From a virus (lineage: Duplodnaviria; Heunggongvirae; Uroviricota; Caudoviricetes), in the IMG/VR virus record IMGVR_UViG_3300045988_182320: DNA of 39,937 bases; one strand, 5' to 3'. Below the pieces are notes generated by a model. That model was not told the origin of the DNA and did no database searches. It saw only the letters and a program-made list of their open reading frames with translations. Shown piece after piece: positions 6,058 through 25,620 of this stretch. Numbering within the stretch: position 1 is the first letter of the stretch; the number at the start of each line of letters is the position of its first letter. Both the position numbers and the translations under genes were made by a program.

Positions 6058-7083
6058 TTATGCGAACTGATTTAAAGCATCCAACACTTGATCTGAGCAG
6101 AAATCCTCGACCTTGGTGTCATCGACAGCAGTGTGCGTGTCGCCACCAGGCTCTCCCTCCAGATCCTTCACTTTATCCTTCAGGTCATCTCTCTCCTTTT
6201 CGAGATTCTTGACCTGAGTCTCTAACTCCTTCTTCTCATCCTTGACCTTCTGAAGCTCTGTGTCTTTGTCGGTCACGGCCTTGGAGTCGGCAGCAATCTT
6301 ATCCTCCAGCTTCTGCATCTGCTCCTGAGAGATGGTGCAGTCCTTGGCTGAATCCTCTGCCTCAATGCCCTCGATGTTGAGGACATTGTTGATGTGAGTC
6401 CATTTTTTAATCATATTAATAATTTTGTTTTGAGATTTATCTTTACCGAAAATTCGGTCGATGAAGCTTGGCTTTTTATCATACCAAGAGTTGACGACCT
6501 CAGGGAGCACCGGAAGGTTGTTGTACTTGATGAAGTCTTGTGTCTGCTCTGTGATGTCAGCAGGTTTGCCATCCATGGACTCATCGACGAGACCCAGTTC
6601 GATGCACTCATCGACGGTGTGCCACTTTGCCTCGGACATCACCTTGACGATGTCCTCGTGCTTCTTGCCCGAGCGATCGCAGTAAACGTTGGCGATGATG
6701 TTGTCGATTTTCTGCTGGTTCTCTTGCTGTTTTTGAAGCTGCTCGATGAGCGAGCCTATCTGCTCCTCGTTGAGCGCAGACCACACAAACTGCTCGGTAG
6801 AGCACTTGTGTACCAGGAGCAAGCTATATTTGCTCATGCGAATCTTGCTGGCACCCATCGCACAGATGGTGGCAGCAGAGGCAGAGAAGCCCGCCTGGAA
6901 GTCAACGGTCACATCGCCATGGGACTTGAACATCTGGCAGATGGCGAGACCTGCGGAGACCTCACCACCCAAGGAGTCGATGGCAACATCGACGTGCTTG
7001 TCTTTGTTAGCCTTGAGAATGTCGCGGACCATGAGTTTTGTCCACGAGCCAATATATCCAGTGATAGAAATTTGGTACTTCAT
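6058..7083 (-). CDS. Prohead protease (ClpP/S14-like) fused to a coiled-coil scaffold-like C-terminus
   Basis: N-terminal IDSLGGEVSAGLAIC...GFSASAATICAMGASKIRMSKYSLLLVH resembles the ClpP Ser/His active-site regions; C-terminal half is K/E/D-rich coiled coil (KVKDEKKELETQVKNLEKERDDLKDKVKDLE). Confidence 0.8.
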   Translation of the reverse strand: MKYQISITGYIGSWTKLMVRDILKANKDKHVDVAIDSLGGEVSAGLAICQMFKSHGDVTVDFQAGFSASAATICAMGASKIRMSKYSLLLVHKCSTEQFVWSALNEEQIGSLIEQLQKQQENQQKIDNIIANVYCDRSGKKHEDIVKVMSEAKWHTVDECIELGLVDESMDGKPADITEQTQDFIKYNNLPVLPEVVNSWYDKKPSFIDRIFGKDKSQNKIINMIKKWTHINNVLNIEGIEAEDSAKDCTISQEQMQKLEDKIAADSKAVTDKDTELQKVKDEKKELETQVKNLEKERDDLKDKVKDLEGEPGGDTHTAVDDTKVEDFCSDQVLDALNQFA

Positions 7084-7106
7084 ATATCTTTGCGATTTTT
7101 ACGGCG

Positions 7107-7114
7107 CAAAGATA
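7107..7114 (-). promoter_or_regulatory. Bacteroidota-type -7 promoter box
   Basis: Plus-strand caaagata = minus-strand TAtcTTTG, 24 nt upstream of the protease start codon. Confidence 0.45.
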
Positions 7115-7642: not shown

Positions 7643-8227
7643 TTAATCTTTGCTAAATCTTGTTGTAGATATTAAATTTACGCCTCTTTTTGCGTGTTGA
7701 TCACGCATTCTGTAGAAACATTGGCGTACGGTATCCTCGTAATCGATGCCAATGCCATGCTGTTCGCACCATGCCGAAATGAGCGATGAAAGCTTGCATG
7801 AGCGGTCGGCGATGTCTTTGAGCGAAGCCCAGAGATCCATCTTGAAGAGGTCGGAAATCATCTCTTTGACGGCACGTCTGGCACGTGGCCCGAGGTAGTT
7901 GTACTCTCGCACAGGCTTAGCCTTGGAGTCAGGCAGCTCGATGGCAAGATACTCTTCGGGATGGGTGAGCCATCGGCTCTGCTCGAACTCCTCGTCGTGG
8001 AAGGTATGCTTGACACTTTGGTGCAGTTGGCTGGCATCAGCCTGCTGCATCTCTTGGATGTTCTCTTGGTCGATAGGCGATAGGTTGACAACGGGAGGTC
8101 TGCTGGTGAACTTGCGGAGCACAGCCACCTCGTTGCCGATGGCAGGGAAGACCACTGGGTTGCCATAAGCTCGGTAAGCCCATTGTCTGATGTGGGTAGG
8201 AACTTTGATGTAAACAATTGGATTCAT
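7643..8227 (-). CDS. Hypothetical protein
   Basis: Track ORF begins with TTG at 8239; first ATG (MNPIVYIK...) at 8225-8227, with a -7 box at 8248-8255. Confidence 0.45.
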   Translation of the reverse strand: MNPIVYIKVPTHIRQWAYRAYGNPVVFPAIGNEVAVLRKFTSRPPVVNLSPIDQENIQEMQQADASQLHQSVKHTFHDEEFEQSRWLTHPEEYLAIELPDSKAKPVREYNYLGPRARRAVKEMISDLFKMDLWASLKDIADRSCKLSSLISAWCEQHGIGIDYEDTVRQCFYRMRDQHAKRGVNLISTTRFSKD

Positions 8228-8247
8228 ATAGCTATGCAATTTTCGTG

Positions 8248-8255
8248 CAAAGATA
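8248..8255 (-). promoter_or_regulatory. Bacteroidota-type -7 promoter box
   Basis: caaagata on plus strand (TAtcTTTG on minus), about 21 nt upstream of ATG 8227. Confidence 0.45.
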
Positions 8256-8369
8256 CAAAGAAAATTTGAAATAACTAACGATAATCGGTAAAAACTAACT
8301 TTTATCAGTAAATTTGGTGTGATATAATTTCGTCCGAAAAGTTTGTATTTTTGTATCGTACAAACAAGG

Positions 8370-8620
8370 CTCTGTAACTAGCTGATAATCAATACTATTT
8401 TTGTGATACAATTTTCTGATACAGAAATTGTAACTCTTTAGCTTTTGTAACTTGGGGTTTTGTCGAGGTCGAAGACCTGTAGGAGAAGGGGCTTGTTACA
8501 AACTTGAAAAACTTTGTAACCGAGTTGTAACGCAACTTTGTAAACATCGGCATGGCGGCTTAACTCACTCTTTTTTAGTTATTTACATCTTTTGCTAACA
8601 TTATGTTACAGAGTTACAAA
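8370..8620. repeat. Iteron-like repeat cluster, candidate replication origin
   Basis: At least 8 copies of TTGTAAC / GTTACAA in about 250 bp (8371-8377, 8428-8434, 8445-8451, 8495-8501, 8514-8520, 8525-8531, 8605-8610, 8613-8619), including the inverted pair gttacaaa(8495-8502)/tttgtaac(8513-8520); next to the primase-helicase gene. Confidence 0.45.
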
Positions 8621-8764
8621 GGATTTGTATAAAATAAAAGAAAGGGGTGTGGGGAAAACGATGGCACGGGGCGTGAAGGAGGTTAGAAAAGGCCCATCGA
8701 GACACCCAGGACACCCCCATTGGCCAATGGAGGGGTAGCGAGACGAAACATCGCCCATGGCAAC

Positions 8765-8800
8765 GAAAAAAGGGAGCGACGGCCAATGCGCATCGCTCCC
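8765..8800 (-). terminator. Rho-independent terminator downstream of the primase-helicase gene
   Basis: Perfect 8-bp GC-rich stem gggagcga (8772-8779) / tcgctccc (8793-8800), followed on the minus strand by tttttt (plus aaaaaa 8766-8771). Confidence 0.55.
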
Positions 8801-8981
8801 TCGTAACATGGGAAAAGAATTATAAATCAGCAAAAATCTGCCTATGAAATCAGCCCTCGTCTGCTTGCAAAAATAGTGAAAAATTGCTTGAAAATTTAGC
8901 CGAAAATATTTGCATAATTCAGATATTTTTTGTACCTTTGCACTATAACTTGGGGCTATCTATTCTATTATATATGGATGG

Positions 8982-11936
8982 CTAGAAAGGTTTATCACTA
9001 TCTTTATCTACCTTGCTCCAGTCAATGGTAGATTGATATTCACCCCCAGCTGCAGGGACATCAGCCTTGGCAGCTTGTTTATCCTCTTTTTTATCATCAC
9101 TCTTCTTGCTTCGGAGATAGATCATCTCGACAGGGCTGCCGTCTGGGTTAGCTGGATCGCGTCTGATGATGCGGTGCTGGCTGTTGCAGAGATCAGCTGG
9201 GTTCAGCTCTTGGATGTATGGACACAGCTCGACGAAGGCTCTGAGCTTTTTGGTGAAGCTCTGTGTGGTCGCCTTGTTGATGCCTGAGAACTGCTTGAAG
9301 TCATTGAACGCACGCTCTCTCACGATAAATGTATCGAGTCGCTCGCTCTCTTCTGAGAAGTAGGATGCAGCCCAGTCTTCGAAGTTGACACCCATGTCGG
9401 CCTTGAACTTGCGCTTGATGATGTTATCCATCGGTGGCATGATCTTGATAGGTTCGCCAGCCAAGGAGAGATAGAAACGACAGCACTGCAGGAAAAAGTT
9501 GATGTCAGCATTCCACTCATCCTCAGTGTATGTCTTTGAGAAGAGATCTTCGTCGAAGTCATCACGGATGCTTCGGGTCTCTTGGTAATCATTCTCCTCT
9601 GTGCGCTGATGGTAATAGTCGGAGAACACCATATAGAGCAGTCTCGCCTCTGAGGAAGGGTCGAAGTCTGCCGGCACGTAGTTGGTGGTGAAGGCAATCT
9701 TCGGGCTATCCTCGAAAGGAATTGTGAAGCTCTGGTTGTTCTTTGGGTTGACTGTCATATCTGAAGTAATGTTATCGTAAAATAAACCTGTGTTGAGATA
9801 GCGGTCACAGTCATCGAGGAGCAGCATCTGGGTGTGCTGTGTCACCTGATCGAAGACGTGTGGGTTGTCCATCAGCTTAGGGTTGCGTCCGGAAAGCTTG
9901 ACTGTTTTCATCAGCAGTGAAAGCGTCTTGAAGAAGAAACTCTTACCGGAACGGCCGTTGCACTCGTTGTTTTCACCAATCTTGTTGTCCATCGCCATCG
10001 GAGCCCAAGCCCTGGATGGTGCCTTGTAATGATGGAGCATGTAGCCGAAGGTGAAAATCTTGTTTATCAAGTTCTGCTTTTGCTCTTGTATCTCGTTGTC
10101 GGCAAGCCCTTCGCCAGCGATGTCGAAGAGGTGTGCCTTGTGGTATGCCTCTTTCTCCTCGATGCTCTTGTCCTCAAAAGCATACTCTAGCTCTTTGCGC
10201 CAGTAGGTGCGAGAGGCGTTGATGAGATAGCCGAAGAAGTGGGACTTCACGTTCTTGACCTCGATGTCGAACTTCGGCCTGCCATCCTCGTCGATGGTTC
10301 GTGTGATGGAGAACATGTCATCCAACTTCTTGAAGTTGTGGTTGATGACATTCTCTTGCCAAACATAGTTTTTGAGCGAGCTGCCCTCACGCTGGTACTC
10401 GTTTAGTCCATCTTTGGTGACCTCGACGCTGACACGAGGGAAGAAGAACAACTGCGAGTGGTTGGTGTAGCTGGTGAAGTCTAGCGTAATCTCTTGGAGC
10501 GAGTCGAGCGCCGATGCCGACAGCTTTGGCGTGTTGAGCACCAAGTTAAGGATGTCACGCTTCTCAGCTCTCTCGATGACCCATTGGCGGCAGAACTCAC
10601 GGATGTCTCTCGTGGTGATGAGCTTGACGATGTTGCCCGTGATGCGAACATATTTGGTGATGGTCGAGTTGTCATCGTGCAAGGTATAGAAACCATTGAG
10701 ACGAAGAAAATTGTAGAGGCACGCCGTGTCGATGTAGTGGTCCCAGGTGTTAGCCTTTTTGTTGAGCTTGCTCACCCAAAATCGGGCTGGCATCGCCAGT
10801 GTCATGAGGTTGCGGAAGTCTTTGCGAGTATTGCGCAGCTCCATCCAGTCTCGCAGGTCTTTGCGCCCCTTGCCACGGTTGTCGTGGTAGGTGCGAAGCC
10901 AAGAAGGCAACCATATCGTATGGATGTCGATGAAGCGCAGGGCAAGCTCTGTGCCCTTGGCGATGCCCGTCTCGTCGATGTCGGGTATATTGTAGAGCAC
11001 CTCGACATACTTCATAATCTCTCGGTACTCCTCGTCGCTGAGCTTGTAGGTCTCGGAGTTGAACCATAACGGGTTGTAGCCCATGGAACGGCAGCAGAGA
11101 CTGTCACGCTCGCCACTGCAGATGAAAGCCTCGGGAAGTTTCTTCTCCTTGTAAGGCTTGGACTCGTCTGTGTTGGTCTTGTTGTACTCAGCCTCTTCAC
11201 GGCGGTTGAACTCGTGATAGGCAGCCTTCAGCTCAGCTAGGCCATTGATGTATTGCTTAGGCTTGATGCCGTCTGGGGTGTAAGAGAATCGCCACTGCTT
11301 TTGGTAGTTGAGAGGCTCATATATCTTGTAGAACTTAACCTCAGGCTTGTCGCCTTCAGCTGGGCGAACCAAGCACTCACGCATAAAGATAGGGTAGTGC
11401 TCGTTGCTGTGCTTAATCTTGACCTTGCGGTCTTTGACGTATCCTATCCACTTGGCGGAATGCCAGTTGAGTGCATCGACGTGCTCTTGCTTGACGTTTG
11501 GACCCAGTACCTTCAGTTCATCCTCGGTGAACTTCTCGTTCAGCTCGAAAGGTCTGGTACCATCTTTCTCGTTGATGGTGGCATCACGCTCTGTGAATGT
11601 AGGCTTGTTGACCTCTTTTTTGAGTTCATCGCTAACGTTGTATTCGGAAGCCAGTCTCAGGATGGCATCAGGAAAGCGGTCGATGCACTTCTCTCTCATG
11701 TAGAGGTCGATAGGTGACTCGGCAGAGCCGTCGCCGCCGAAGTCAGTCACTCGCCAGCAGTCTTTGAACTTTTTGAGACTGCAGGAAGGTGTTTTCTCAT
11801 TGCGGATGGCAAAGTGCTTTTTAGGCGTGCCAGTCGTGCAATATTTCTGGACGCATTCTTTTGCGTCCGGGTATAGTGAGATGATGATGTCGAGACCATC
11901 ATCTGTAGCTTGATAAATTTGTTCTGCTTTGATCAT
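8982..11936 (-). CDS. DNA primase-helicase (TOPRIM-like N-terminal region plus SF3/D5-like P-loop NTPase)
   Basis: About 984 aa from ATG 11934-11936 (track ORF starts at TTG 11966); Walker A NGRSGKSF and Walker B-like LLLDDCD in the C-terminal third; SGERD...DIDETG TOPRIM-like acidic motifs upstream. Confidence 0.7.
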   Translation of the reverse strand: MIKAEQIYQATDDGLDIIISLYPDAKECVQKYCTTGTPKKHFAIRNEKTPSCSLKKFKDCWRVTDFGGDGSAESPIDLYMREKCIDRFPDAILRLASEYNVSDELKKEVNKPTFTERDATINEKDGTRPFELNEKFTEDELKVLGPNVKQEHVDALNWHSAKWIGYVKDRKVKIKHSNEHYPIFMRECLVRPAEGDKPEVKFYKIYEPLNYQKQWRFSYTPDGIKPKQYINGLAELKAAYHEFNRREEAEYNKTNTDESKPYKEKKLPEAFICSGERDSLCCRSMGYNPLWFNSETYKLSDEEYREIMKYVEVLYNIPDIDETGIAKGTELALRFIDIHTIWLPSWLRTYHDNRGKGRKDLRDWMELRNTRKDFRNLMTLAMPARFWVSKLNKKANTWDHYIDTACLYNFLRLNGFYTLHDDNSTITKYVRITGNIVKLITTRDIREFCRQWVIERAEKRDILNLVLNTPKLSASALDSLQEITLDFTSYTNHSQLFFFPRVSVEVTKDGLNEYQREGSSLKNYVWQENVINHNFKKLDDMFSITRTIDEDGRPKFDIEVKNVKSHFFGYLINASRTYWRKELEYAFEDKSIEEKEAYHKAHLFDIAGEGLADNEIQEQKQNLINKIFTFGYMLHHYKAPSRAWAPMAMDNKIGENNECNGRSGKSFFFKTLSLLMKTVKLSGRNPKLMDNPHVFDQVTQHTQMLLLDDCDRYLNTGLFYDNITSDMTVNPKNNQSFTIPFEDSPKIAFTTNYVPADFDPSSEARLLYMVFSDYYHQRTEENDYQETRSIRDDFDEDLFSKTYTEDEWNADINFFLQCCRFYLSLAGEPIKIMPPMDNIIKRKFKADMGVNFEDWAASYFSEESERLDTFIVRERAFNDFKQFSGINKATTQSFTKKLRAFVELCPYIQELNPADLCNSQHRIIRRDPANPDGSPVEMIYLRSKKSDDKKEDKQAAKADVPAAGGEYQSTIDWSKVDKDSDKPF

Positions 11937-11963
11937 AATTCTTTTCCATTGTAAATTTGCTTG

Positions 11964-11971
11964 CAAAATTA
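11964..11971 (-). promoter_or_regulatory. Bacteroidota-type -7 promoter box for the primase-helicase gene
   Basis: caaaatta on plus strand (TAatTTTG on minus), 28 nt upstream of ATG 11936. Confidence 0.4.
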
Positions 11972-12104
11972 TTGCAAAGCGAGTTCAAAACAAAATACTT
12001 ATTTTTTGTCGCATAGAGCCTTTGGCTCATACTCGACGTATCTGTGGAGAGGGTGGCAGTATCTGCCATTGATGCAGTTGCTGCCATCCTCGCACTTTTG
12101 GCAT

Positions 12105-12416
12105 TTAATCGGTGGCATCGACTTTTATATCAAAAGTGTCGTTGTGTAGCAACATCTTGGTATGAACATAAATTGGTTTTTGTTCATCCTCATCCCATCC
12201 AACCTCTCGGAAGTCTCTGCCATCGATATAGCATTCGGTGGCGTATCCTTTGTCGGTCCACTCTACGATATGGTCTTTGTCGAACTCGTCTCTTGCTGGC
12301 ACTGTAGCCAGAACACGAGTGCCAAACTTGCTGTAGCTAATCTCGTGTATAGTGACGTTAGGGTATTTCTCGATGATTGCCTCCTCGATAGATTTTGTCT
12401 TAGTCTTCTTTTTCAT
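12105..12416 (-). CDS. Hypothetical protein (early region)
   Basis: 103 aa, ATG at 12414-12416. Confidence 0.4.
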   Translation of the reverse strand: MKKKTKTKSIEEAIIEKYPNVTIHEISYSKFGTRVLATVPARDEFDKDHIVEWTDKGYATECYIDGRDFREVGWDEDEQKPIYVHTKMLLHNDTFDIKVDATD

Positions 12417-12606
12417 TGTTCTTCATTCTGAATTTAACAATACCTGCCACGATGCCGTCTTCTTGGTCATCGTAGAACATATTTAAATCTGTTGTGCCCT
12501 TATGGAGTGTACCATAGGACACGTCAACGGCAACGCTGGCATCCTCGAAATCTTTGAGGATGGCTTGAAGCTGTTTGCTGTTGCATCTGACTGTCATTTT
12601 TCCCAT
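12400..12606 (-). CDS. Hypothetical small protein (early region)
   Basis: 68 aa, ATG at 12604-12606; overlaps neighbours. Confidence 0.35.
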   Translation of the reverse strand: MGKMTVRCNSKQLQAILKDFEDASVAVDVSYGTLHKGTTDLNMFYDDQEDGIVAGIVKFRMKNNEKED

Positions 12607-12812
12607 GATCCATCATTGATAATTTGCTCGATGACCTCTCTGTCGATGGCACGCCAAGTATTGGTGCGCATCTTATTGTAGATGGTGTTCTGGCTCATCT
12701 CTAGCTTTAGCTGCAGTGTGGCCATGAACTTGCTTCTCTTTTTGCGTGGTATCTCATTATACCATGCGAGGATGATATTTTCATCATCATTTTTTTTGTT
12801 TTTTTCTTGCAT
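12594..12812 (-). CDS. Hypothetical small basic protein, first gene of the leftward early operon (Cro-like by position)
   Basis: 72 aa, ATG at 12810-12812, transcribed divergently from the HTH regulator; -7 box at 12841-12848. Confidence 0.4.
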   Translation of the reverse strand: MQEKNKKNDDENIILAWYNEIPRKKRSKFMATLQLKLEMSQNTIYNKMRTNTWRAIDREVIEQIINDGSWEK

Positions 12813-12840
12813 ATTCCAATATTTATTATTAATTTTGTTG

Positions 12841-12848
12841 CAAAGTTA
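12841..12848 (-). promoter_or_regulatory. Bacteroidota-type -7 promoter box (leftward early promoter)
   Basis: caaagtta on plus strand (TAacTTTG on minus), 29 nt upstream of ATG 12812; a plus-strand TAatTTTG lies immediately adjacent at 12830-12837. Confidence 0.45.
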
Positions 12849-12933
12849 GTAATAAAAATCGGAAAATACTAACGAAAGTAAGTAAAAACACCTATGATAA
12901 TAGGTTAAATATTATTAATTAAATTAGGTAATT

Positions 12934-13311
12934 ATGTTTAATGGTCAGATAATCAGAAAGTTAATGTCGGATGCTGGCTTAACTAAAAAAGAGTTTGAAA
13001 GACGTATGTTCGGTAGTAAATCGACCGACCTCAACCATTTGGAAAAAGCGAAGAATCTTCGCAGTGACACTCTCGAACGTCTGCGTGAGGTGTTGAAGTG
13101 CTCTATGGATGACTTCTTTACAGCACCCTCATGGGCTGAGAACGGAAAGGGGACAGTCGTAGGCTCTAACAATGTGCTGTCAACAGTAGCCATCGGCAAC
13201 GAAGTGATGGAAGCCCAATATCTCAAGGAGTTGCTCTTGGAGAAGGACAAACGCATCAGCACTTTGGAAAATTATATCAAGCTTCTGGAGACTAACTTAA
13301 ATAAGGACTAA
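12934..13311 (+). CDS. XRE/Cro-CI-type helix-turn-helix transcriptional regulator (candidate repressor)
   Basis: 125 aa; N-terminal IIRKLMSDAGLTKKEFERRMFGS...SDTLERLREVL matches an HTH_XRE-like helix-turn-helix; divergent from the early operon and upstream of the integrase. Confidence 0.65.
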   Translation: MFNGQIIRKLMSDAGLTKKEFERRMFGSKSTDLNHLEKAKNLRSDTLERLREVLKCSMDDFFTAPSWAENGKGTVVGSNNVLSTVAIGNEVMEAQYLKELLLEKDKRISTLENYIKLLETNLNKD

Positions 13312-13535
13312 TACGAAACATAATTCGTAAGATGAATCCTTATATATAATAAGGTGTATAAAATATATCGTATAATCTCAGCAGTGATATCCAACTCGTT
13401 AGTCCTGCCGCCGCAACCAATATCGGGTAAGAAGTTGGAAACAACATTCTTATCCGATTTTCCGTTTTGGGGAGGGACGGAAGCGAAATACTTTATTGTT
13501 GAATATCATTGGCTGGCAACGGACAATGAAAAAAA

Positions 13536-14699
13536 ATGACTGCAAAAGAAATTGATTTTTTGAGCTCGCGTGAAATAGTAGGTTTCACGCTGCCTGTGTT
13601 GCATACCAAGGGCGGTTACTGGTATGTTGACTTTACTGCCTTTGACCCTGTTTCGGGTCGGATGAAGCGCAAGAAATATATGCTTAATAGGTACAAGACT
13701 GACCACAAGAAGCGTATGATGGGTACCTTGCTTATCCACAATATCACGGCAAAATTGACCGCTGGATGGAATCCTTGGGTGAATGCCGACAAGTCGAGAC
13801 AATTCACCGAAATACCAATTATCTTTAGTCGTTATCGTGATTATATTAAGTCGATGACCGACAAAAAGTCGATGAAGGAAAAGACCTCTATCGACTACCT
13901 CAGCCGCCTCAAGACTCTGGAGTCTTTCATCACTGAGTGCAAGAGTGTCAAATATGCCTATCAGATTGACCGTGCCTTCGCCATCGACTTCTTAGACCAC
14001 CTGATGTATGACCGTGATGTGAGTGCTACCACAAGAAACAACTATCGCTCTTGGCTTGTCTCCTTCGGCACTTGGCTTATGGATAGAAAATATATCAGCG
14101 AGAACCCTGCCATCGACATCAGAAACATCGCTCAGAAGGAGAAGTTCAGAGACCCTTTGACCGAGGGCGCGCTTAAGAAGCTGAAGACTTATCTCTATGA
14201 TAACAACAGACATTTTCTCTTGGCTTGCCTCTTTGAATATTATACCTTTATCCGACCGAATGAGTTGACGCAGATAAGAATCAAAGATGTGTCGATTGCT
14301 GACCAGACGGTCTTTATCAGTTCTGCCATCAGCAAGAACCGTAAGGACGGACTTGTGGCATTGAACGATGAAATCTTGAAGCTCATGATAGAGCTGAAGA
14401 TATTTGAGCATCCGGGACATTGTTTTATCTTTGGCAAGGGGTTGAAGCCTGGTGAGGAGCGAGCACCTTATAACCAACTGAGAGTAGAGTGGGGCAAGAT
14501 GCGAGATGCTATTGGGTTTCCGAAGGAGTATCAGTTTTATAGCCTGAAGGACACTGGCATCAGGGATTTGGCGAACGCACAGGGTATCGTGGTCGCCAAG
14601 GATCAGGCACGCCACTCTGATATATCTGTGACGAATCGATATATCAAGAACCAGATGAAAGTGAACGAGGAGACCAAGCACTTCAAAGGTGGGCTTTAG
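13536..14699 (+). CDS. int: Tyrosine site-specific integrase
   Basis: 387 aa; C-terminal ARHSDISVTNRYI (His and catalytic Tyr box) and upstream HCFIFGKGL region typical of phage tyrosine recombinases; stop tag at 14697-14699. Confidence 0.85.
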   Translation: MTAKEIDFLSSREIVGFTLPVLHTKGGYWYVDFTAFDPVSGRMKRKKYMLNRYKTDHKKRMMGTLLIHNITAKLTAGWNPWVNADKSRQFTEIPIIFSRYRDYIKSMTDKKSMKEKTSIDYLSRLKTLESFITECKSVKYAYQIDRAFAIDFLDHLMYDRDVSATTRNNYRSWLVSFGTWLMDRKYISENPAIDIRNIAQKEKFRDPLTEGALKKLKTYLYDNNRHFLLACLFEYYTFIRPNELTQIRIKDVSIADQTVFISSAISKNRKDGLVALNDEILKLMIELKIFEHPGHCFIFGKGLKPGEERAPYNQLRVEWGKMRDAIGFPKEYQFYSLKDTGIRDLANAQGIVVAKDQARHSDISVTNRYIKNQMKVNEETKHFKGGL

Positions 14700-14724
14700 T
14701 CTCCTCGATGAGGTGGTGTCGTGG

Positions 14725-14756
14725 CTTCGCTGGTTTGTGTTTGATGAGTAGCGAAG
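14725..14756. terminator. Hairpin between convergent genes (candidate bidirectional terminator)
   Basis: 7-bp stem cttcgct (14725-14731) / agcgaag (14750-14756) between the integrase stop and the stop of the 632-aa minus-strand gene. Confidence 0.3.
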
Positions 14757-16655
14757 TTACGACATCATATAAAAATATCCTGTATAGATAGGCTCAATCT
14801 GGTCATCCTTGACCTCCATCTCTATTTTTTCGCATACGAATTTTTTGTTGTGTATGATGTATGTGTGAGATGGGTCAGGGATGGTATCAGATTTGAACTT
14901 GACCTGAAGGCAGTTTTTGTTGTCTATCTTGAGACCGCTGTCGTGGAGCTCACCCAAACAGGTTCCTGCTTGCCAAGCCTTGTTTAGGGATAGGGAAGCC
15001 ATCAGAACGGTTGGAAACGTGCCAATATTGCCAGGATCGAGAAACTCCATCCTATACATGGAATTGATGCGGCTGTCAGTCATGAACTGCGGCCATCTGG
15101 ACTTCTCCCCTACCCATGAGACGTTGCCATTGAGTGGGTGTTCGTATTTTTGAACTTTGCCAGGCACTATGAAAAACACATTCATGCACTCCTGGTCATC
15201 CTCGGAATCATCCAAGGTGGACTCATCATCGATGGCATCCTGTATGGAGACGTAGTTGTAGCCATCCTCGTCTGTGTCGCCCTCTTTGGCTTCGGCTTCT
15301 TTGTCGTTTGGCATAGACAGGAGGCAGCGCCATTCGCTGTGTTTATCCTCAAAAAGAAAAGACCTAAAGCTAACATTTTCCACGACCTGTGCTGCTGGGG
15401 ATATGTTGAGGTCTGTGTAATCATCGGAGGAGTTATCCCTTATCAGTGGCGACCAGACACCAGCCAACTGCCAGCTCTTGTTGCCGTCGGTATCCTCGAC
15501 ATATATATAATAATCGCTGCCCAGATGACGGATGATGGTGGTGCGCTTCTTCTTCTCGGACCATCCACTGGTAGTGGCAGGAAACTGAAAGTTGGTACCA
15601 ACGGCTGTCTCGAACGAATCGACTATATCGAAATTATCAAAAACTTTTTTGGGAATGACTTCGTAATCACCTCTGTTGGCTGAGTCGCCTAAGTTGTACT
15701 GCAGGTTGGCTGTCGATGAGGTTGAGAACGAACCATCGGCATCGTAGTCGGTGGTGTACTCGTCGAGTGTCTCTATCTCTACGGAGTCGGCGGATGATAG
15801 CTCTGAGGACTTGATGACCTGACAAGTCTTTTTGATGTCGTCGAAGTATATGGTGGCGTTGAAGAGCTTGCGGAACTCCTCGATGAAGGTGTAGCTAGTC
15901 CAATGAGGAAGGGCACGGCGAAGCTCTAGGGTCTTGAAGGCGGAGGCGATGTAGAGCAAGTTCCATGGAGAAACATCGAGGTCGTTGCGTGTGAGGGTGT
16001 AGCCCTCGTAGGCGATGACTCGCTTGAAGATGTACATCAGGTTGGGCTGCACGGCGACGTTGCTGATGTATGGATCTTTGCTGCCTATGAAATTGCCCGT
16101 GCGGTCAACGCCCACGAAATTGGCTATCATGTCGTTGGTCTCGTCTCTGACTGGCATGAAGCACCACTTGCCCTGCTCGCCCAGAAACTTGCTCTGGTCG
16201 GCGACGAGCCTATAGACGGATTGAACCTTGGGGATGTTTTTCCAGCCCTGTGAAAAACCTTTATCTACCGTATAGCCTGGTGCGGATGCCTTGCCGAAGT
16301 CTATCTCGTCGATGTAGTGCTTGGTCATCTTGTCGTTGAACTTGATGCGAGACTTGCCGCCCACTATCTGAAGCTTTATCTCAGAGTCGGTGACGCTGAT
16401 GATGGTACCCACGCCAGAGAGTACCAGGCGACCGCTCACGTAAAGCTTGCAATCGTTGTAGGTCTGGGTGGATTTGGAGACATCGAAGCGGCTCACGTTG
16501 TGGAAAACTCGGCGGTTGGGCATTATTGCCATGGGGAAATTGATGTCGTAGGAGTATTCGCCATCGTCGGTGACGTATTGGTTGGCGTATGTGAGCTTGA
16601 TGGATTGGCTGGCAGCCGGGTAGGCTGCCATGCCATTGATGATGCATGTTATCAT
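14757..16655 (-). CDS. Hypothetical tail protein (directly downstream of the tape-measure-like gene)
   Basis: 632 aa ORF, ATG at 16653-16655; assignment is positional only. Confidence 0.4.
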   Translation of the reverse strand: MITCIINGMAAYPAASQSIKLTYANQYVTDDGEYSYDINFPMAIMPNRRVFHNVSRFDVSKSTQTYNDCKLYVSGRLVLSGVGTIISVTDSEIKLQIVGGKSRIKFNDKMTKHYIDEIDFGKASAPGYTVDKGFSQGWKNIPKVQSVYRLVADQSKFLGEQGKWCFMPVRDETNDMIANFVGVDRTGNFIGSKDPYISNVAVQPNLMYIFKRVIAYEGYTLTRNDLDVSPWNLLYIASAFKTLELRRALPHWTSYTFIEEFRKLFNATIYFDDIKKTCQVIKSSELSSADSVEIETLDEYTTDYDADGSFSTSSTANLQYNLGDSANRGDYEVIPKKVFDNFDIVDSFETAVGTNFQFPATTSGWSEKKKRTTIIRHLGSDYYIYVEDTDGNKSWQLAGVWSPLIRDNSSDDYTDLNISPAAQVVENVSFRSFLFEDKHSEWRCLLSMPNDKEAEAKEGDTDEDGYNYVSIQDAIDDESTLDDSEDDQECMNVFFIVPGKVQKYEHPLNGNVSWVGEKSRWPQFMTDSRINSMYRMEFLDPGNIGTFPTVLMASLSLNKAWQAGTCLGELHDSGLKIDNKNCLQVKFKSDTIPDPSHTYIIHNKKFVCEKIEMEVKDDQIEPIYTGYFYMMS

Positions 16656-21035: not shown

Positions 21036-21057
21036 AATTGAATATTTTATTTTATGG

Positions 21058-21065
21058 CAAAGGTA
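21058..21065 (-). promoter_or_regulatory. Bacteroidota-type -7 promoter box for the tape-measure-like gene
   Basis: caaaggta on plus strand (TAccTTTG on minus), 23 nt upstream of ATG 21035. Confidence 0.45.
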
Positions 21066-21080
21066 ATAAGGAGGAAAATA

Positions 21081-21119
21081 TAATAAAAATACGAGACCGT
21101 ATGTATTGCGGTCTCGTAT
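21081..21119 (-). terminator. Rho-independent terminator
   Basis: Perfect 11-bp stem atacgagaccg (21089-21099) / cggtctcgtat (21109-21119), 9-nt loop, followed on the minus strand by tttttatta. Confidence 0.6.
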
Positions 21120-21461
21120 TTACTTGGTTATCTCTTGCTCTTTTTTAAAGAACTCGTATGCAAGATTGTTTGCATCCCAAACAAGATATTTCTTGTTGGT
21201 GTTTCTGAGTGTCTGTTTATCACCTGTTATGGAGTTTGCTATCGTGACGCAGAAGAATCTGCCTCGCTTTACGATTTCGGTTGCCGTATTGTTTGGCGAT
21301 GCCAGTCTTATAGGCTCGTCAAAATTCTCATCAAAAGTATCAAACAATGGTTCGGAAGCCACTGTGGCTGGGCAAGAACTATTGCCAAGCTTGTCGAGAC
21401 CTTTGAGGAGTGCAACTGTTATAATCGCTAGTATCCAGCATCCAAATATAGTCGTAATCAT
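21120..21461 (-). CDS. Small membrane protein (hypothetical)
   Basis: Start placed at ATG 21459-21461 (MITTIFGCWILAIITVALL..., N-terminal hydrophobic helix); the track ORF extends further upstream across a -7 box at 21491-21498. Confidence 0.4.
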   Translation of the reverse strand: MITTIFGCWILAIITVALLKGLDKLGNSSCPATVASEPLFDTFDENFDEPIRLASPNNTATEIVKRGRFFCVTIANSITGDKQTLRNTNKKYLVWDANNLAYEFFKKEQEITK

Positions 21462-21490
21462 AATTTGCAAGTTTATTATTATCTTTGTTG

Positions 21491-21498
21491 CAAATTTA
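21491..21498 (-). promoter_or_regulatory. Bacteroidota-type -7 promoter box
   Basis: caaattta on plus strand (TAaaTTTG on minus), 30 nt upstream of ATG 21461. Confidence 0.4.
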
Positions 21499-21683
21499 AT
21501 AATAATATTTGGAATATGCAAGTATTTTGTGTTAAATCTTTGATTTGTTTTGCGGTATGGTGGAAAAATATTATATTTGCAGTGGCAATTTAATTTTAGA
21601 AAGTATGAATAAAGATTTTGCTTTAATATTGGTAAACATAATATGCGCCTTAACGGCATTTGTTTGTATGATAATCACTATTG

Positions 21684-22040
21684 TTATTTCATTAGTGAGA
21701 TTATAATAGTAATACACATAGATGCGATTGTAATAATCGTGCAAATGATATTGATATATTCTTTGTATTCTTTCAGAAGTGTCAGTCTCTCCTGTCTTCT
21801 CTTCTGTTTGTTATAGCCTTTCTTGGCAGCATTCTCCCCTTGTGGTGTCAGCTTATAATAAGCTTCTCCCCACTCATAAACAAGTCCCTCGTCTTGAAGT
21901 GATTGTAGAACATCGTATGGCTCAATGTCATATCCATACGTATCATTTATAGCACTGTGTACATCGTCTTTGTTAGGACTACCTTCTAAGAACTGGCTTA
22001 AAATGAAATCTGCGATTTCTATTTGCTTTTTAGTCATCAT
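21684..22040 (-). CDS. Hypothetical tail-anchored membrane protein
   Basis: About 118 aa from ATG (MMTKKQIEIADF...), C-terminal hydrophobic helix IICTIITIASMCITIIISL; the track ORF starts with GTG at 22124 and would run through an upstream hairpin. Confidence 0.4.
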   Translation of the reverse strand: MMTKKQIEIADFILSQFLEGSPNKDDVHSAINDTYGYDIEPYDVLQSLQDEGLVYEWGEAYYKLTPQGENAAKKGYNKQKRRQERLTLLKEYKEYINIICTIITIASMCITIIISLMK

Positions 22041-24045: not shown

Positions 24046-25620
24046 TCACGTGAATTTATAGAACTTCTTTTTGAATTTATTGTGAAGCTCTGCGACCACG
24101 GTGGAGAAGGGTAGCTCATCACGACAGAAGTCGTTGAGGGCTTGGTCTATCAAGATCTTGGAGCCTGTATAGAGGTAGTGCTCCAGAGGTTGCCATACCT
24201 CGGTGCCGTCTGGCTCCAGGTGGTCGATGATGCGATAGCGTAGGGAGAGGCGCTTCTTGGGCACCTCTTTGGTGACCATGTGGGTGGAGCCGTCCGGGGC
24301 GGTCTCCTCTTGCTGGATGGTCTCCTTCTCTATCACCGAGTCATCGACCTTGTAGTCTATCACTTGAACGAGGAACTTGTTCTCGTCCTGACCCTCACGG
24401 CAGATGATGTCCTCGATGGACTGCTGCTGTGATTTCTCCATACCGTCAAAAGGCACGCGCGCACGGCGAGCCTTGACGAGTTTACCGAATCTTTCCATAC
24501 CGATTTTCTTATATAAGTTTTTAGAGTTTGCGTGGATGCCCAGACCTAGGCGAGAGGCTGCCTTGAGCTGTATCTGGCGGTCTGTGAAGCCCGCCTTGCG
24601 TAAGTTGGCGATCTGTCTGCAGAGGTCGTGCTTGAACCGCTTGCGCAACAGGGCGTGGTCGGCGTAGATGATCTGACCGCAGAAGTCGATGCCATCGCAG
24701 GTGCGGTGGATACCCCAAGACTTATTGATGGATAGGTGCCAGTCACGGGCGAGGTGCATCACGGCAAGCTCTGCCATCAGCCTGAGGAACACCTTATCCT
24801 CGTGGAGGATGTAGATGTTGTCCATGAAGCGGTAATAATGGCGAAGACCTTGGCGGCAGAAGCGCTCGAACCTATCGTTGAGCGACTTCACTCCCCCGCA
24901 TAGCAGTTGAGCTTGCTGCTGAGTGCGACAGGTAACGAGCATGTCGATCACGTAGCGAGCCTGCCAGTAACGGAACTTGTCGGTGTCTTGGAGAATGTCG
25001 AAGCATCGGAGTGCCAGGTAATCGAAGCGGGCGAGGAAGAGCTGACCCAAGAGTTGGGCGAGCTTGACGCCGAGCACGATGCCTGGATTGAAGCTATCGA
25101 CCACCTCGTCGATGAAGGCGAGGAGCTTGCGGTCTTTGATCTTGCGGCGATATTCACTTTTGAGAAGAGCGTGGTCTATGCTCTGAAAATAATGGTGAAT
25201 ATCCATGGGCAAGCAGTAGAAGGTATCTTGCTGTGGCGAGTTGAAGATGTCTCGCTTGACAAGATTATAGAAATAATGGGTGCCCTTGCCCTTGGAACCA
25301 GCCGGACTGTGGCTGTAGAGTGTCTTGCGAAGGTTATCCTCTACAGGTTGCAGGGCAGCGTGCTGGATGACGTGGTCGATAACGGGCAGCTTGTTGACTT
25401 GGCGATGTTTTGGATAGTCGATATCTTTGGCGACATAGGCTGAGGTATGCCAAGTTTGTTGGGTGTAAGCATCGAGCATGCGTCCGATGTTATGGTCTAG
25501 GTTTGCCTCGAATTTTTGGACCGCACGGCGAGACATCTTTTGTCGGGCGTAGTCATAGAATGCCCGACGAAAGTTGTCTAGTGTCTCGACCTGTGGCGAT
25601 ATGTTGCCAAACCTTTTCAT
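24046..25620 (-). CDS. Reverse transcriptase of a diversity-generating retroelement
   Basis: RT motif A LPMDIHHYFQSIDH; motif B-like GIVLGVKLAQLLGQLFL; motif C position reads YYRFMDNIYIL (non-canonical); primer-grip-like DFCGQII; adjacent to the TR/VR pair. Start placed at first ATG 25618-25620; the track ORF begins with GTG at 25689. Confidence 0.8.
   Translation of the reverse strand: MKRFGNISPQVETLDNFRRAFYDYARQKMSRRAVQKFEANLDHNIGRMLDAYTQQTWHTSAYVAKDIDYPKHRQVNKLPVIDHVIQHAALQPVEDNLRKTLYSHSPAGSKGKGTHYFYNLVKRDIFNSPQQDTFYCLPMDIHHYFQSIDHALLKSEYRRKIKDRKLLAFIDEVVDSFNPGIVLGVKLAQLLGQLFLARFDYLALRCFDILQDTDKFRYWQARYVIDMLVTCRTQQQAQLLCGGVKSLNDRFERFCRQGLRHYYRFMDNIYILHEDKVFLRLMAELAVMHLARDWHLSINKSWGIHRTCDGIDFCGQIIYADHALLRKRFKHDLCRQIANLRKAGFTDRQIQLKAASRLGLGIHANSKNLYKKIGMERFGKLVKARRARVPFDGMEKSQQQSIEDIICREGQDENKFLVQVIDYKVDDSVIEKETIQQEETAPDGSTHMVTKEVPKKRLSLRYRIIDHLEPDGTEVWQPLEHYLYTGSKILIDQALNDFCRDELPFSTVVAELHNKFKKKFYKFT

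What the first reader, a model, noticed from the sequence alone, without database searches (positions are those of the whole stretch)
12813..12933. Compact lysogeny switch: back-to-back -7 boxes between the HTH regulator and the leftward early operon
Minus-strand TAacTTTG (plus 12841-12848) and plus-strand TAatTTTG (12830-12837) are 3 nt apart and point outward. Their predicted transcripts would start within each other's promoter, giving mutually exclusive occupancy. Together with the integrase downstream this marks a temperate lifestyle; the 125-aa HTH protein has no peptidase domain, so it is Cro/C-like rather than a LexA-like CI.
Basis: partly seen in the sequence, partly recalled or inferred. 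Interest (0 to 1): 0.4.

Follow-up and report, generated by a model that had tools for sequence, protein, structure and literature searches.

The report
Prophage switch with head-on promoters
This is the control region of a common Segatella (Prevotella) copri prophage, where the promoter boxes for the repressor gene and for the lytic genes face each other 3 bases apart beside paired repressor-binding sites; it is a familiar kind of phage switch in an unusually tight, previously undescribed layout.

Summary
Both TAnnTTTG boxes are at the stated coordinates, 3 nt apart. They face each other; they do not "point outward". With the box at -12..-5, the predicted starts are 12842 (rightward) and 12836 (leftward), each inside the other's box.

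The pair is not chance. Four such pairs occur in the window against 0.04 expected. This one is kept in 31 of 32 related phages, and most variation falls at an 'n' position of each box.

Two 16-bp palindromes lie at 12868-12883 and 12890-12905, 19 nt upstream of the leftward box. The same geometry recurs at a second leftward promoter (8274-8309), and another site sits at the 3' end of the HTH gene.

The 125-aa protein has an HTH, a linker and a long helix, with no peptidase. It is best read as the immunity repressor. The 72-aa first leftward gene is probably the Cro-like partner.

attP (about 13396-13461) lies between the repressor gene and int. Integrated copies occur in S. copri.

The logic resembles the face-to-face switches of coliphages 186 and P2, built here with Bacteroidota promoter elements. 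No transcript or binding data exist, so all functions are inferred.

The parts
12594..12812 (-). First gene of the leftward early operon, 72 aa: a small four-helix protein and the candidate Cro-like regulator.
12823..12855 (.). 33-bp near-palindrome, TTATTATTAAtTTTG-TTG-CAAAGTTAgtAATAA, which contains both -7 boxes.
   Evidence: repeat I2. In 12823-12848, 22 of 26 columns are invariant across 27 distinct relatives, against 23 of 77 in the rest of the intergenic DNA outside the AT-rich block. The relatives' exact 19-mer TAACTTTGTTGCAAAGTTA occurs only in this phage family in IMG/VR: 34 contigs, nearly all already found through the HTH gene or cut off right beside the site.
12830..12837 (+). -7 box TAATTTTG, the predicted promoter of the HTH repressor gene. 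Predicted start A12842, giving a 92-nt leader.
   Evidence: The consensus positions are invariant in relatives, and one 'n' position varies (T or C). It is the only TAnnTTTG on the plus strand between the 72-aa gene and 14426. Its paralogue at 21498-21491 sits 29 nt upstream of a membrane-protein gene. It is followed by T rather than C, unlike the gene-proximal boxes. The start site is inferred from the -12..-5 rule.
12841..12848 (-). -7 box TAACTTTG (extended form TAACTTTGCA), the predicted early lytic promoter. Predicted start at 12836, giving a 24-nt leader to ATG 12812.
   Evidence: The leader length matches the modal 23 nt reported for B. thetaiotaomicron (PMC7366714). The spacing of 27-29 nt from the box G to the ATG is the same at the primase, tape-measure and moron promoters of this window.
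12868..12883 (.). Proximal operator ACTAACGAAAGTAAGT, at -32..-47 of the leftward promoter. Its half-site TTAG lies where the -33 TTTG element is expected. It lies at +27..+42 of the rightward transcript.
   Evidence: It is the best hit in the window (21.3 bits) with a weight matrix built only from relatives outside the window's own group. It sits at a fixed offset of 19 nt from the box in all relatives, while its central bases vary.
12890..12905 (.). Distal operator ACCTATGATAATAGGT, with perfect 6-bp arms. Its centre is 22 bp from the centre of the proximal site.
   Evidence: 15.5 bits. The position is conserved in all relatives, and the sequence changes between lineages.
12904..12923 (.). 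Invariant AT-rich block GTTAAATATTATTAATTAAA just upstream of the HTH start codon. Its function is unknown. It repeats the TATTATTAA found next to the rightward box.
   Evidence: 17 of 20 columns are invariant, although the neighbouring operators vary. TATTATTAA occurs 3 times in the window against 0.12 expected, at 12824, 12910 and 21496(-).
12934..13311 (+). 125-aa XRE-type HTH protein, the predicted immunity repressor.
   Evidence: Pfam HTH_26, E = 1.8e-6. PHROG 3, 'transcriptional repressor'. The AlphaFold2 model shows HTH helices at 6-61, a disordered stretch at 67-87 and one long helix at 90-124. A homologue is named 'HTH transcriptional regulator [Segatella copri]' and was seen on at least 1000 contigs.
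13291..13328 (.). Downstream operator-like pair at the 3' end of the repressor gene: ACTAACTTAAATAAGG (13291-13306) and ACGAAACATAATTCGT (13313-13328), 22 bp apart.
   Evidence: The matrix score is 15.3-16.7 for the first site. In 9 of the 13 relatives scanned there is a matrix hit of 13 or more at +380 to +401 from the HTH start. The second window site is the positional homologue of those hits but scores only 7.3.
13396..13461 (.). attP core region, with the crossover near 13459-13461.
   Evidence: Prophage copies in S. copri contigs share this stretch and then diverge into host DNA. The free-form relative L048 continues into int, as the window does. Many IMG/VR prophage contigs end just after the HTH gene.
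13536..14699 (+). Tyrosine integrase.
   Evidence: Pfam Phage_integrase and SAM-like domains. PHROG 1, E = 9e-31. There is no plus-strand -7 box and no terminator-like site between the HTH gene and int.
8248..8309 (-). Second repressor-controlled leftward promoter: -7 box TATCTTTG (8255-8248) and operators ACTAACGATAATCGGT (8274-8289) and ACTAACTTTTATCAGT (8294-8309).
   Evidence: The operators start 18 nt from the box, as at the main site. They are present at the same offsets in every relative whose stored DNA reaches this far, and they change together with the main-site operators. Matrix scores are 18.8 and 18.3.
21465..21520 (.). Operator-less paralogue of the palindrome and leftward leader (TATCTTTG-TTG-CAAATTTA at 21480-21498). 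Its minus box precedes the membrane-protein gene 21120-21461.
   Evidence: The alignment with the reverse complement of 12808-12860 was made by eye. The same 19-mer precedes membrane-protein genes in other viral contigs. In L114 it lies between two divergent genes whose start codons are 38 nt apart.

Best explanation
The finding is the centre of the immunity (lysis-lysogeny) region of a temperate tailed phage of Segatella copri.

Shown by sequence analysis:
- Two Bacteroidota sigma-A -7 boxes face each other across 3 nt, inside a 33-bp palindrome.
- The leftward box precedes the early operon: a 72-aa HTH-like protein, two small ORFs and then the primase. Its geometry is canonical.
- The rightward box is the only consensus box upstream of a 125-aa XRE-type HTH gene. 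That gene is followed by attP and int.
- To the right of the boxes lie two 16-bp palindromes of the form ACTAA-N6-TTAGT, 22 bp apart.
- The same motif pair sits at the same distance upstream of a second leftward promoter 4.6 kb away. A further site or pair sits at the 3' end of the HTH gene.

Inferred mechanism:
1. The 125-aa protein probably dimerises through its C-terminal long helix and is the prophage repressor.
2. By binding the proximal and distal sites (-32..-69 of the leftward promoter) it covers the -33 contact region. This shuts the early promoter. The same happens at the second promoter.
3. Bound repressor starts 6 bp beyond the roughly +20 edge of a polymerase sitting on the rightward promoter. 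The repressor's own promoter therefore stays accessible.
4. The two open complexes would melt the same 12831-12847 segment, so only one promoter can be occupied at a time. Silencing the leftward promoter therefore frees the rightward one. This is indirect activation by relief of promoter competition, as coliphage 186 CI does for pL.
5. The leftward promoter has the extended TTTGC form and is probably the stronger of the two.
6. Repressor bound at +27..+64 of its own leader, and at the end of its gene, could act as a roadblock. That would give negative autoregulation and would limit read-through into attP and int.
7. Integration at attP separates int from this promoter.
8. The 72-aa protein is the candidate Cro-like antagonist. 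Its binding site is unknown; the invariant TATTATTAA blocks are candidates.
For: Boxes, their enrichment and their conservation.

Box position (-12..-5) and typical leader length: PMC9723704 and PMC7366714.

Host is a Bacteroidota species, so the TAnnTTTG logic applies.

HTH domain, absence of a peptidase domain, and the long C-terminal helix.

The 72-aa protein resembles lambda-repressor-like HTH folds.

Operators:
- Fixed offsets of 19 and 41 nt at the main site, and 17-18 and 38-40 nt at the second promoter, in the relatives where the sites could be located.
- The sequence changes with the repressor lineage while the flanks stay invariant.
- A matrix built from other lineages finds the four predicted sites among the six best hits in 40 kb. 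Scores are 15.5-21.3, against a mean best score of 12.7 in shuffled sequence.
- In the 13 relatives scanned over 10-20 kb, hits of 13 or more fall at these loci, at the 3' end of the HTH gene, and in two relatives also at -86 right next to the leftward box.

Evidence that the rightward-type arm can be a promoter:
- Its paralogue at 21498-21491 and in other phages lies 29 nt upstream of membrane-protein genes.
- In L114 the same palindrome is the only intergenic DNA between two divergent genes.

Strength asymmetry: all 11 gene-proximal minus-strand boxes are followed by C, and the rightward box is followed by T.

attP lies between the HTH gene and int, and integrated copies exist.

There is no terminator-like site and no other box between the HTH gene and int.

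The closest cultured relative is the temperate Bacteroides phage BT-TP2 (primase 67% identical). It has the same gene order, a face-to-face box pair with a 35-nt gap, and a palindrome 18 nt upstream of its lytic-side box.
Against: - No transcript ends, binding data or genetics exist for this phage. Every functional assignment is inferred from sequence.
- The rightward box gives an atypically long 92-nt leader and lacks the C after TTTG. Its -33 position (CTTG at 12806-12809) is not conserved in relatives.
- It lies inside the conserved 5' leader of the leftward transcript, which could be conserved for other reasons.
- At two other face-to-face pairs in the window (11952-11971 and 7085-7114) the rightward partner has no gene to drive. 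The partner at 11952 is kept only in the three closest relatives.
- The palindrome extends beyond the boxes (TTATT...AATAA), and the other promoters here lack this extension. It may therefore also, or instead, be a protein-binding site.
- The invariant AT-rich block at 12904-12923 is unexplained and could hold a second promoter for the HTH gene.
- The BT-TP2 comparison rests on one sequence in which boxes are not enriched.
- Co-variation between the repressor recognition helix and the operator half-sites is modest, mainly at position 6 and in the centre.
Confidence: 0.65

Rival explanations
1. Only the leftward box is a working promoter. The rightward box is a by-product of a palindromic or conserved 5' leader. 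The HTH gene would be transcribed from somewhere else, for example a non-consensus, possibly repressor-dependent promoter in the invariant AT-rich block at 12904-12923. That would give a very short leader, as lambda P_RM does.
For: - The AT-rich block is as conserved as the box core, and it repeats the TATTATTAA that abuts the rightward box.
- The rightward box lacks the C found after all gene-proximal boxes and would give a 92-nt leader.
- Rightward partners at 11952 and 7085 have no gene to serve.
Against: - There is no TAnnTTTG in the AT-rich block. The best candidate, TAATTAAA, fails three of the four TTTG positions.
- Very short leaders are rare in Bacteroides: about 3.7% are under 10 nt.
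- The rightward box keeps all six consensus positions in all 27 distinct sequences, while one 'n' position varies.
- Its paralogue serves membrane-protein genes at canonical spacing in several phages.
- In L114 both arms must be used.
Confidence: 0.2
2. The 33-bp palindrome is chiefly the binding site of a dimeric regulator, for example the 72-aa Cro-like protein or a host factor. This protein would set the direction or level of transcription. The resemblance of one or both arms to -7 boxes would be secondary. This reading can coexist with the main explanation.
For: - The symmetry reaches beyond the boxes to TTATT/AATAA, and these outer arms are nearly invariant.
- The other promoters of the window lack this extension.
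- TATTATTAA recurs in the invariant AT-rich block.
- The 72-aa protein is conserved, with an invariant putative recognition helix.
Against: - The operator-less copy at 21480-21498 and the copy in L114 sit where promoters are needed and nothing else is available.
- The leftward arm has exactly the spacing and extended consensus of the other promoters.
- No binding data exist for any protein.
Confidence: 0.12
3. The HTH protein is not a phage repressor. It would be an XRE-type antitoxin or a general regulator carried as cargo, and the palindromes would be unrelated repeats.
For: The XRE/HTH_26 family also contains antitoxins. The best match among solved structures is only a generic regulator.
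Against: - No toxin-like partner gene is adjacent.
- The gene sits at the prophage end next to attP and int in all relatives.
- Its motif is found upstream of two early promoters and at its own 3' end, and almost nowhere else in 10-20 kb of each relative.
Confidence: 0.02
4. The box pair is a chance match in AT-rich intergenic DNA.
For: The region is AT-rich, and the motif has only six specified bases.
Against: - Local-composition shuffles give 0.044 pairs against 4 observed.
- The pair is kept in 31 of 32 relatives, whose repressor genes have diverged to 64% protein identity.
Confidence: 0.01

Closest known systems
Coliphage 186 pR/pL switch (CI, Apl, flanking FL/FR sites) and the related P2 Pe/Pc switch (C, Cox)
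   Same: - Lytic and lysogenic promoters face each other.
- In 186 the strong lytic promoter suppresses the weaker lysogenic one, and the repressor activates its own promoter indirectly by silencing the lytic one (186 logic as summarised in PMC3675496).
- The repressor has extra sites some hundreds of bp away.
- From my own knowledge: int lies downstream of the repressor gene, and P2 C is a small repressor that is not cleaved on SOS induction.
   Different: - There is no sequence relationship beyond the generic HTH fold.
- The predicted starts are 6 bp apart, so the promoters overlap completely. In 186 and P2 the starts are tens of bp apart (from memory, about 62 bp and about 35 bp). Interference here would be by competition for one site, not by collisions of elongating polymerases.
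- The promoter elements are the Bacteroidota -7/-33 type.
- The operators lie on one side only, over the -33 region.
- attP lies between the repressor gene and int.
Lambda-type CI/Cro switch (OR with P_R and P_RM)
   Same: - Divergent genes for a larger HTH repressor and a small HTH protein at the head of the lytic operon.
- Repeated palindromic operators about two helical turns apart.
- A second operator set at another early promoter, as with OL and OR.
   Different: - In lambda the promoters are back-to-back with the operators between them. Here they are face-to-face with the operators beside them.
- The repressor has no S24 peptidase domain.
- There is no evidence of direct activation of the repressor's own promoter.
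Bacteroides phage BT-TP2 / BT-TP1 (PQ571279.1), cultured temperate phages of B. thetaiotaomicron
   Same: - Same module order: int, HTH gene, divergent small HTH gene, small ORFs, and a primase 67% identical to the one here.
- A diversity-generating retroelement is present.
- Its lytic-side and repressor-side boxes also face each other.
- A palindrome lies 18 nt upstream of the lytic-side box.
   Different: - The repressor is different: tblastn with the window's HTH protein finds no match.
- The gap between the boxes is 35 nt rather than 3.
- The matching operator was not found at its second promoter.
- The paper describing BT-TP2 does not analyse its regulation.
Bacteroidota sigma-A promoters (-7 TAnnTTTG, -33 TTTG)
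   Same: Both boxes match the -7 consensus. The leftward one has the typical leader length.
   Different: Two boxes arranged as one palindrome that shares a single melting region. I found no description of this arrangement in the papers searched.

Membership tests
Bacteroidota sigma-A promoter | -7 element matching TAnnTTTG | tested here: met
   Both boxes match exactly. The consensus positions are conserved in relatives.
Bacteroidota sigma-A promoter | -33 element TTTG about 19-21 nt upstream of the -7 box | tested here: inconclusive
   The leftward promoter has TTAG (3 of 4) at -36..-33, inside the proximal operator. The rightward promoter has CTTG in the window but CTTC or CTTT in relatives. 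The -33 motif is weak or absent in some Bacteroidota data sets.
Bacteroidota sigma-A promoter | Leader length typical of the phylum (mode about 23 nt) | tested here: inconclusive
   The predicted leftward leader is 24 nt, which meets the feature. The predicted rightward leader is 92 nt, which is atypical but within the known range.
Bacteroidota sigma-A promoter | A mapped transcription start 5 nt downstream of the box | not testable with these tools
   No transcript data were available.
Lambda-type CI/Cro switch | Divergent genes for an HTH repressor and a small HTH protein heading the lytic operon | tested here: met
Lambda-type CI/Cro switch | Repeated palindromic operators shared by the two promoters, lying between back-to-back promoters | tested here: not met
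   Operators are present. However, the promoters are face-to-face and the operators lie to one side.
Lambda-type CI/Cro switch | Repressor with a C-terminal S24 (LexA-like) self-cleaving domain | tested here: not met
   No Pfam hit other than HTH families. The model shows a linker and a single long helix.
186/P2-type face-to-face switch | Lytic and lysogenic promoters that face each other, so that their transcripts converge | tested here: met
   Met at the level of the predicted boxes. The predicted starts at 12842 and 12836 give a 7-nt overlap. Promoter activity was not measured.
186/P2-type face-to-face switch | Repressor sites over the lytic promoter, plus auxiliary distal sites | tested here: met
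   Predicted sites lie at -32..-69 of the leftward promoter, with further sites at 8274-8309 and 13291-13328. Binding was not measured.
186/P2-type face-to-face switch | Homology of the repressor and partner protein to 186 CI/Apl or P2 C/Cox | tested here: not met
   No sequence match to solved structures beyond a generic regulator at E = 0.37. No tblastn match in GenBank phage records. The similarity is one of working principle only.
XRE / Cro-C1-type HTH family | Pfam HTH_26/HTH_3 match above the curated threshold | tested here: met
   HTH_26 scores 28.5 bits against a cut-off of 22.

The most novel reading that the evidence does not exclude
The palindromic pair of -7 boxes would be one shared polymerase-loading site that can fire in either direction, a 'two-way' promoter. 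A repressor pair bound on one flank would decide the direction. It would remove the -33 contact of the lytic direction only, so that it represses the lytic genes and turns on its own gene in one step, with no activator contact. The same module without operators would be reused in Prevotella/Bacteroides phages as a compact constitutive bidirectional promoter for lysogenic-conversion genes. The base after TTTG (C or T, set by the asymmetric TTG centre) would fix which direction dominates.
Probability: 0.3. Interest if true: 0.6.

Novelty: new variant of a known kind. Interest (0 to 1): 0.42.

Why it matters
Segatella copri is one of the most abundant human gut bacteria. This repressor family was seen on well over a thousand of its contigs. 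I found no dissected lysis-lysogeny switch for any Segatella or Prevotella phage in the papers searched. A recent survey found complete lambda-like CI repressors in only 197 of 902 Bacteroidales prophages.

This locus gives a concrete, testable wiring diagram for the other kind of repressor. It predicts two transcription starts, five to six operator sites at three loci, a repressor, a Cro candidate and attP. It also suggests a very compact design principle: complete overlap of two opposed promoters whose symmetry is broken by a one-sided operator. That principle could be useful for building genetic tools in Bacteroidota, and for predicting immunity groups among S. copri prophages from their operator and repressor variants.

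Tried and rejected
- **GenBank phage records.** Megablast of 11800-14800 and tblastn of the HTH protein found no match, so there is no annotated relative of the repressor.
- **Structured leader RNA.** The palindromes could form hairpins in the 92-nt leader. The fold is not significant (z = -1.46). The same motifs at 8274-8309 lie in an untranscribed spacer, which favours a DNA-level role.
- **Third operator at 12914-12929** (ATTAATTAAATTAGGT, one mismatch). Rejected because its right half is not conserved in relatives and its matrix score is only 8.3.
- **Face-to-face pairing as a general property of promoters here.** Rejected. Of the four pairs, only the one in the finding is universal in the family. 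The pair at 11952-11971 is kept only in the three closest relatives.
- **The 25-aa ORF to the right of the 21480 palindrome as a real gene.** Rejected because its ATG is lost in the commoner variant of the module.
- **tRNA as the integration target.** No tRNA was found in the window or in the prophage flanks.
- **The sigma-70 promoter scan** does not apply to a Bacteroidota host. Only its terminator output was used.
- **More distant relatives of the repressor.** A search with a profile found only the same family, so the arrangement could not be tested at greater divergence.
- **The BT-TP2 palindrome (GTGAA-N5-TTCAC) at its second promoter.** Not found there.
Full report
**1. Observation**

The plus strand reads TAATTTTG at 12830-12837. 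The minus strand reads TAACTTTG at 12848-12841. The two boxes are separated by TTG.

The plus-strand box lies to the left of the minus-strand box, so the boxes face each other.

The sigma-A box TAnnTTTG occupies -12 to -5 in a flavobacterial start-site map (PMC9723704). By that rule the predicted starts are A12842 (rightward) and the A opposite T12836 (leftward). The transcripts would overlap by 7 nt. The leaders would be 92 nt to the HTH gene (ATG 12934) and 24 nt to the 72-aa gene (ATG 12812). The commonest leader length in B. thetaiotaomicron is 23 nt (PMC7366714).

**2. Chance**

- TANNTTTG occurs 40 times in the window against 15.5 expected.
- Face-to-face pairs with a gap of 20 nt or less occur four times: 7085-7114, 11952-11971, 12830-12848 and 21480-21498. 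Shuffles that keep local composition give 0.044 on average, and none of 1000 reached four.
- Thirty-two related IMG/VR phage contigs were found through the HTH protein (64-100% identity). The pair is present at -104/-93 from the HTH start in 31 of them. The exception has one G-to-A change.
- In 27 distinct sequences, 22 of the 26 columns of the core (12823-12848) are invariant. So are 11 of the 12 consensus positions of the two boxes. The four variable columns are one 'n' position of each box, the first base of the 3-nt centre (one sequence) and one consensus base of the minus box (one sequence).
- The rest of the intergenic DNA outside the AT-rich block has 23 of 77 invariant columns.
- The other three pairs are not universal. 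The one at 11952-11971 is kept only in the three closest relatives.

**3. Host and element**

- Related repressor genes lie in Segatella copri assemblies. One cluster is named as an S. copri regulator and was seen on at least 1000 contigs, including a 4.45-Mb one. The Bacteroidota promoter consensus therefore applies.
- All large genes of the window are on the minus strand, except the HTH gene and a tyrosine integrase at 13536-14699.
- Many prophage-derived contigs end just after the HTH gene.
- S. copri prophage copies share 13396-13461 with the window and then continue into host DNA. The relative L048 continues into int and the tail genes, as the window does.
- attP therefore lies between the HTH gene and int, with the crossover near 13459-13461. 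The window is the free or circular form.
- The closest cultured phage is the temperate Bacteroides phage BT-TP2. Its primase is 67% identical and it has the same module order. Its near-identical twin BT-TP1 was induced from a lysogen (PMC12694917).

**4. The two proteins**

- The 125-aa protein matches Pfam HTH_26 above threshold and PHROG 3, 'transcriptional repressor'.
- Its model has an HTH domain (residues 6-61), a disordered linker (67-87) and one long helix (90-124). There is no peptidase domain.
- The 72-aa first leftward gene is conserved in all relatives. It is modelled as four helices with pLDDT 77.8.
- By position and orientation, the 125-aa protein is the maintenance repressor and the 72-aa protein holds the Cro position.

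**5.

Two 16-bp palindromes lie to the right of the boxes: ACTAACGAAAGTAAGT (12868-12883) and ACCTATGATAATAGGT (12890-12905). Their centres are 22 bp apart. The first starts 19 nt from the leftward box.

The same motif (ACTAA-N6-TTAGT) occurs as a pair at 8274-8289 and 8294-8309. That pair starts 18 nt from another leftward box (8255-8248), which precedes gene 7643-8239.

In the relatives these sites keep their offsets: 19 and 40-41 nt at the main site, and 17-18 and 38-40 nt at the second promoter. Their sequences change with the repressor lineage while the flanks stay fixed. For example, the lineage with 64%-identical repressors has ACTAAT-N4-(A/T)TTAGT at all four sites.

A weight matrix built only from lineages other than the window's places the four sites among the six best hits in the 40-kb window. 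The scores are 15.5-21.3, against a mean best score of 12.7 in shuffles. The other two hits are 13291-13306, at the end of the HTH gene, and 13814-13829, inside int.

Thirteen relatives were scanned over 10-20 kb each. Hits of 13 or more fall at the two promoter-linked pairs, at a site +380 to +401 from the HTH start in nine of the relatives, and in two relatives at -86, right next to the leftward box. The window's positional homologue of the +380 site is the weaker palindrome ACGAAACATAATTCGT (13313-13328), 22 bp from the 13291 site. The site inside int is specific to the window.

**6. Geometry and proposed mechanism (inferred)**

- Relative to the leftward start, the operators span -32..-47 and -54..-69.
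- The half-site TTAG lies at -36..-33, where the -33 TTTG element is expected. Bound repressor should therefore block the leftward promoter. The same applies at 8255.
- Relative to the rightward start, the operators span +27..+64. This is beyond a polymerase bound at that promoter, so the repressor's own promoter stays accessible.
- The two open complexes would melt the same DNA (about 12831-12847), so only one can form at a time. Silencing the leftward promoter should then raise rightward initiation without any activating contact. This is the logic shown for 186 CI at pR/pL (PMC3675496).
- All 11 minus-strand boxes that lie within 90 nt upstream of a gene are followed by C (TTTGC), including the leftward box. 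The rightward box is followed by T. The asymmetric centre TTG may therefore make the lytic promoter the stronger one.
- Repressor bound in its own leader and at the end of its gene could limit its own synthesis and read-through into attP and int.
- There is no terminator-like site and no other plus-strand box between the HTH gene and int. int may therefore be co-transcribed with the repressor gene only on the circular genome.

**7. Independent support that both arms can be promoters**

- A 52-nt near-copy of the palindrome plus the leftward leader lies at 21465-21520, in a low-GC island and without operators. This alignment was made by eye.
- The arm that corresponds to the repressor-side box lies 29 nt upstream of a 113-aa membrane-protein gene (21120-21461).
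- The same 19-mer is found in 23 viral contigs. In about fifteen it precedes a membrane-protein gene in the same way. In six it falls inside a coding sequence and looks incidental. In the commoner variant of the promoter module, the short ORF on the other side has lost its ATG.
- In L114 the same palindrome is the only DNA between two divergent genes whose start codons are 38 nt apart.
- In BT-TP2 the lytic-side and repressor-side boxes also face each other, with a 35-nt gap. A palindrome (GTGAATTTTATTCAC) lies 18 nt upstream of the lytic-side box. This is one sequence in which boxes are not enriched, so it is only suggestive.

**8. Unexplained features and rivals**

- The palindrome extends to TTATT/AATAA, beyond what other promoters here show.
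- A 20-nt AT-rich block (12904-12923) just before the HTH start codon is almost invariant, and it repeats TATTATTAA. That 9-mer occurs three times in the window against 0.12 expected.
- These could be sites for the 72-aa protein, or a second promoter for the HTH gene.
- The leader RNA is not significantly structured.
- The main rival is that only the leftward box is active and the HTH gene has another promoter. I give this about 0.2.

**9. Comparison and novelty**

The element works like the face-to-face switches of 186 and P2. It shares the CI/Cro gene pair and the multiple operator sets of lambda. It is not homologous to either beyond the HTH fold, and it fails the lambda features of back-to-back promoters and a cleavable repressor.

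Three things differ from the described systems:
- the two promoters overlap completely, with predicted starts 6 bp apart, within one palindrome;
- the operator pair is one-sided and lies over the -33 region;
- attP lies between the repressor gene and int.

I found no description of a Segatella or Prevotella phage switch, or of this arrangement. A recent survey found complete lambda-like CI repressors in only 197 of 902 Bacteroidales prophages.

**Verdict:** a real and well-conserved regulatory region, and a new variant of a known kind of switch. Interest is moderate. All functions remain to be tested.

Noticed in passing
window 21036-21683: A low-GC island (GC 0.35) lies between the tape-measure gene and the next structural gene. 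It contains a 113-aa membrane or lipoprotein-like gene (21120-21461, minus strand). A hairpin plus T-run follows that gene at about 21088-21121. A 33-aa very hydrophobic ORF (21606-21707, plus strand) has its own TATATTTG box at 21572. The island looks like a lysogenic-conversion cassette, possibly with a small toxic peptide.
   Followed up: partly
window 8240-8981: A 740-bp non-coding stretch lies next to the primase gene. It holds many TTGTAAC/GTTACAA repeats and two GATACA repeats, all conserved in relatives, and may be the replication origin. Two plus-strand boxes are conserved in all relatives: TATTTTTG at 8346 and TACCTTTG at 8933. The first is back-to-back with the 8255 box across the second operator pair, and it would transcribe the repeat region. 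The second points antisense into the 3' end of the primase gene.
   Followed up: partly
window about 8762-8800 (minus strand): A hairpin GGGAGCGA...TCGCTCCC followed by a T-run on the minus strand. In relatives it carries a change that keeps pairing only on the minus strand (a G-U pair). It is probably the terminator of the early operon. That would explain why the 8255 promoter needs its own operators.
   Followed up: partly
window 24046-25773 (minus strand): A reverse transcriptase gene (PHROG 1423, E = 1.4e-54) lies with an Rfam RT-17 RNA immediately upstream (25672-25773, 59.9 bits). This looks like a diversity-generating retroelement, as in the related phage BT-TP2.
   Followed up: no
window 7085-7114: A fourth face-to-face box pair, TATCTTTG-N14-CAAAGATA, forms a 12-13-bp inverted repeat that overlaps the start-codon region of gene 6058-7083. 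In relatives one arm changes to match the other (TATC/GATA becomes TAAC/GTTA), while a third lineage has unmatched arms (TAGC/GTTA). This suggests selection on pairing or on symmetry.
   Followed up: partly
window, all gene-proximal minus-strand boxes (7114, 8255, 11971, 12848, 21065, 21498, 22183, 23566, 25992, 33424, 38787): Every one of these boxes is followed by C (TAnnTTTGC, mostly TTTGCA). Boxes inside genes are followed by any base. This may be an extended -7 consensus for this host or phage.
   Followed up: partly
window 13814-13829: An operator-like site ACCAATTATCTTTAGT (matrix score 16.7-16.8) lies inside the integrase gene. It is absent at this position in the collinear relative L048. 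It could be chance or a window-specific auxiliary site.
   Followed up: no
L065 (CAVCRI010000336.1): A contig binned as 'Lachnospiraceae bacterium' carries this Bacteroidota-type phage (HTH 78% identical, same control region). This is most likely a binning error, not a Firmicutes host.
   Followed up: no
L126 4500-4620 (Bacteroides phage BT-TP2, record about 44499-44619): The annotated TTG start of gp49 (record 44569) overlaps the lytic-side -7 box. An in-frame ATG 45 nt downstream is the more likely start. The repressor-side box abuts that ATG.
   Followed up: partly
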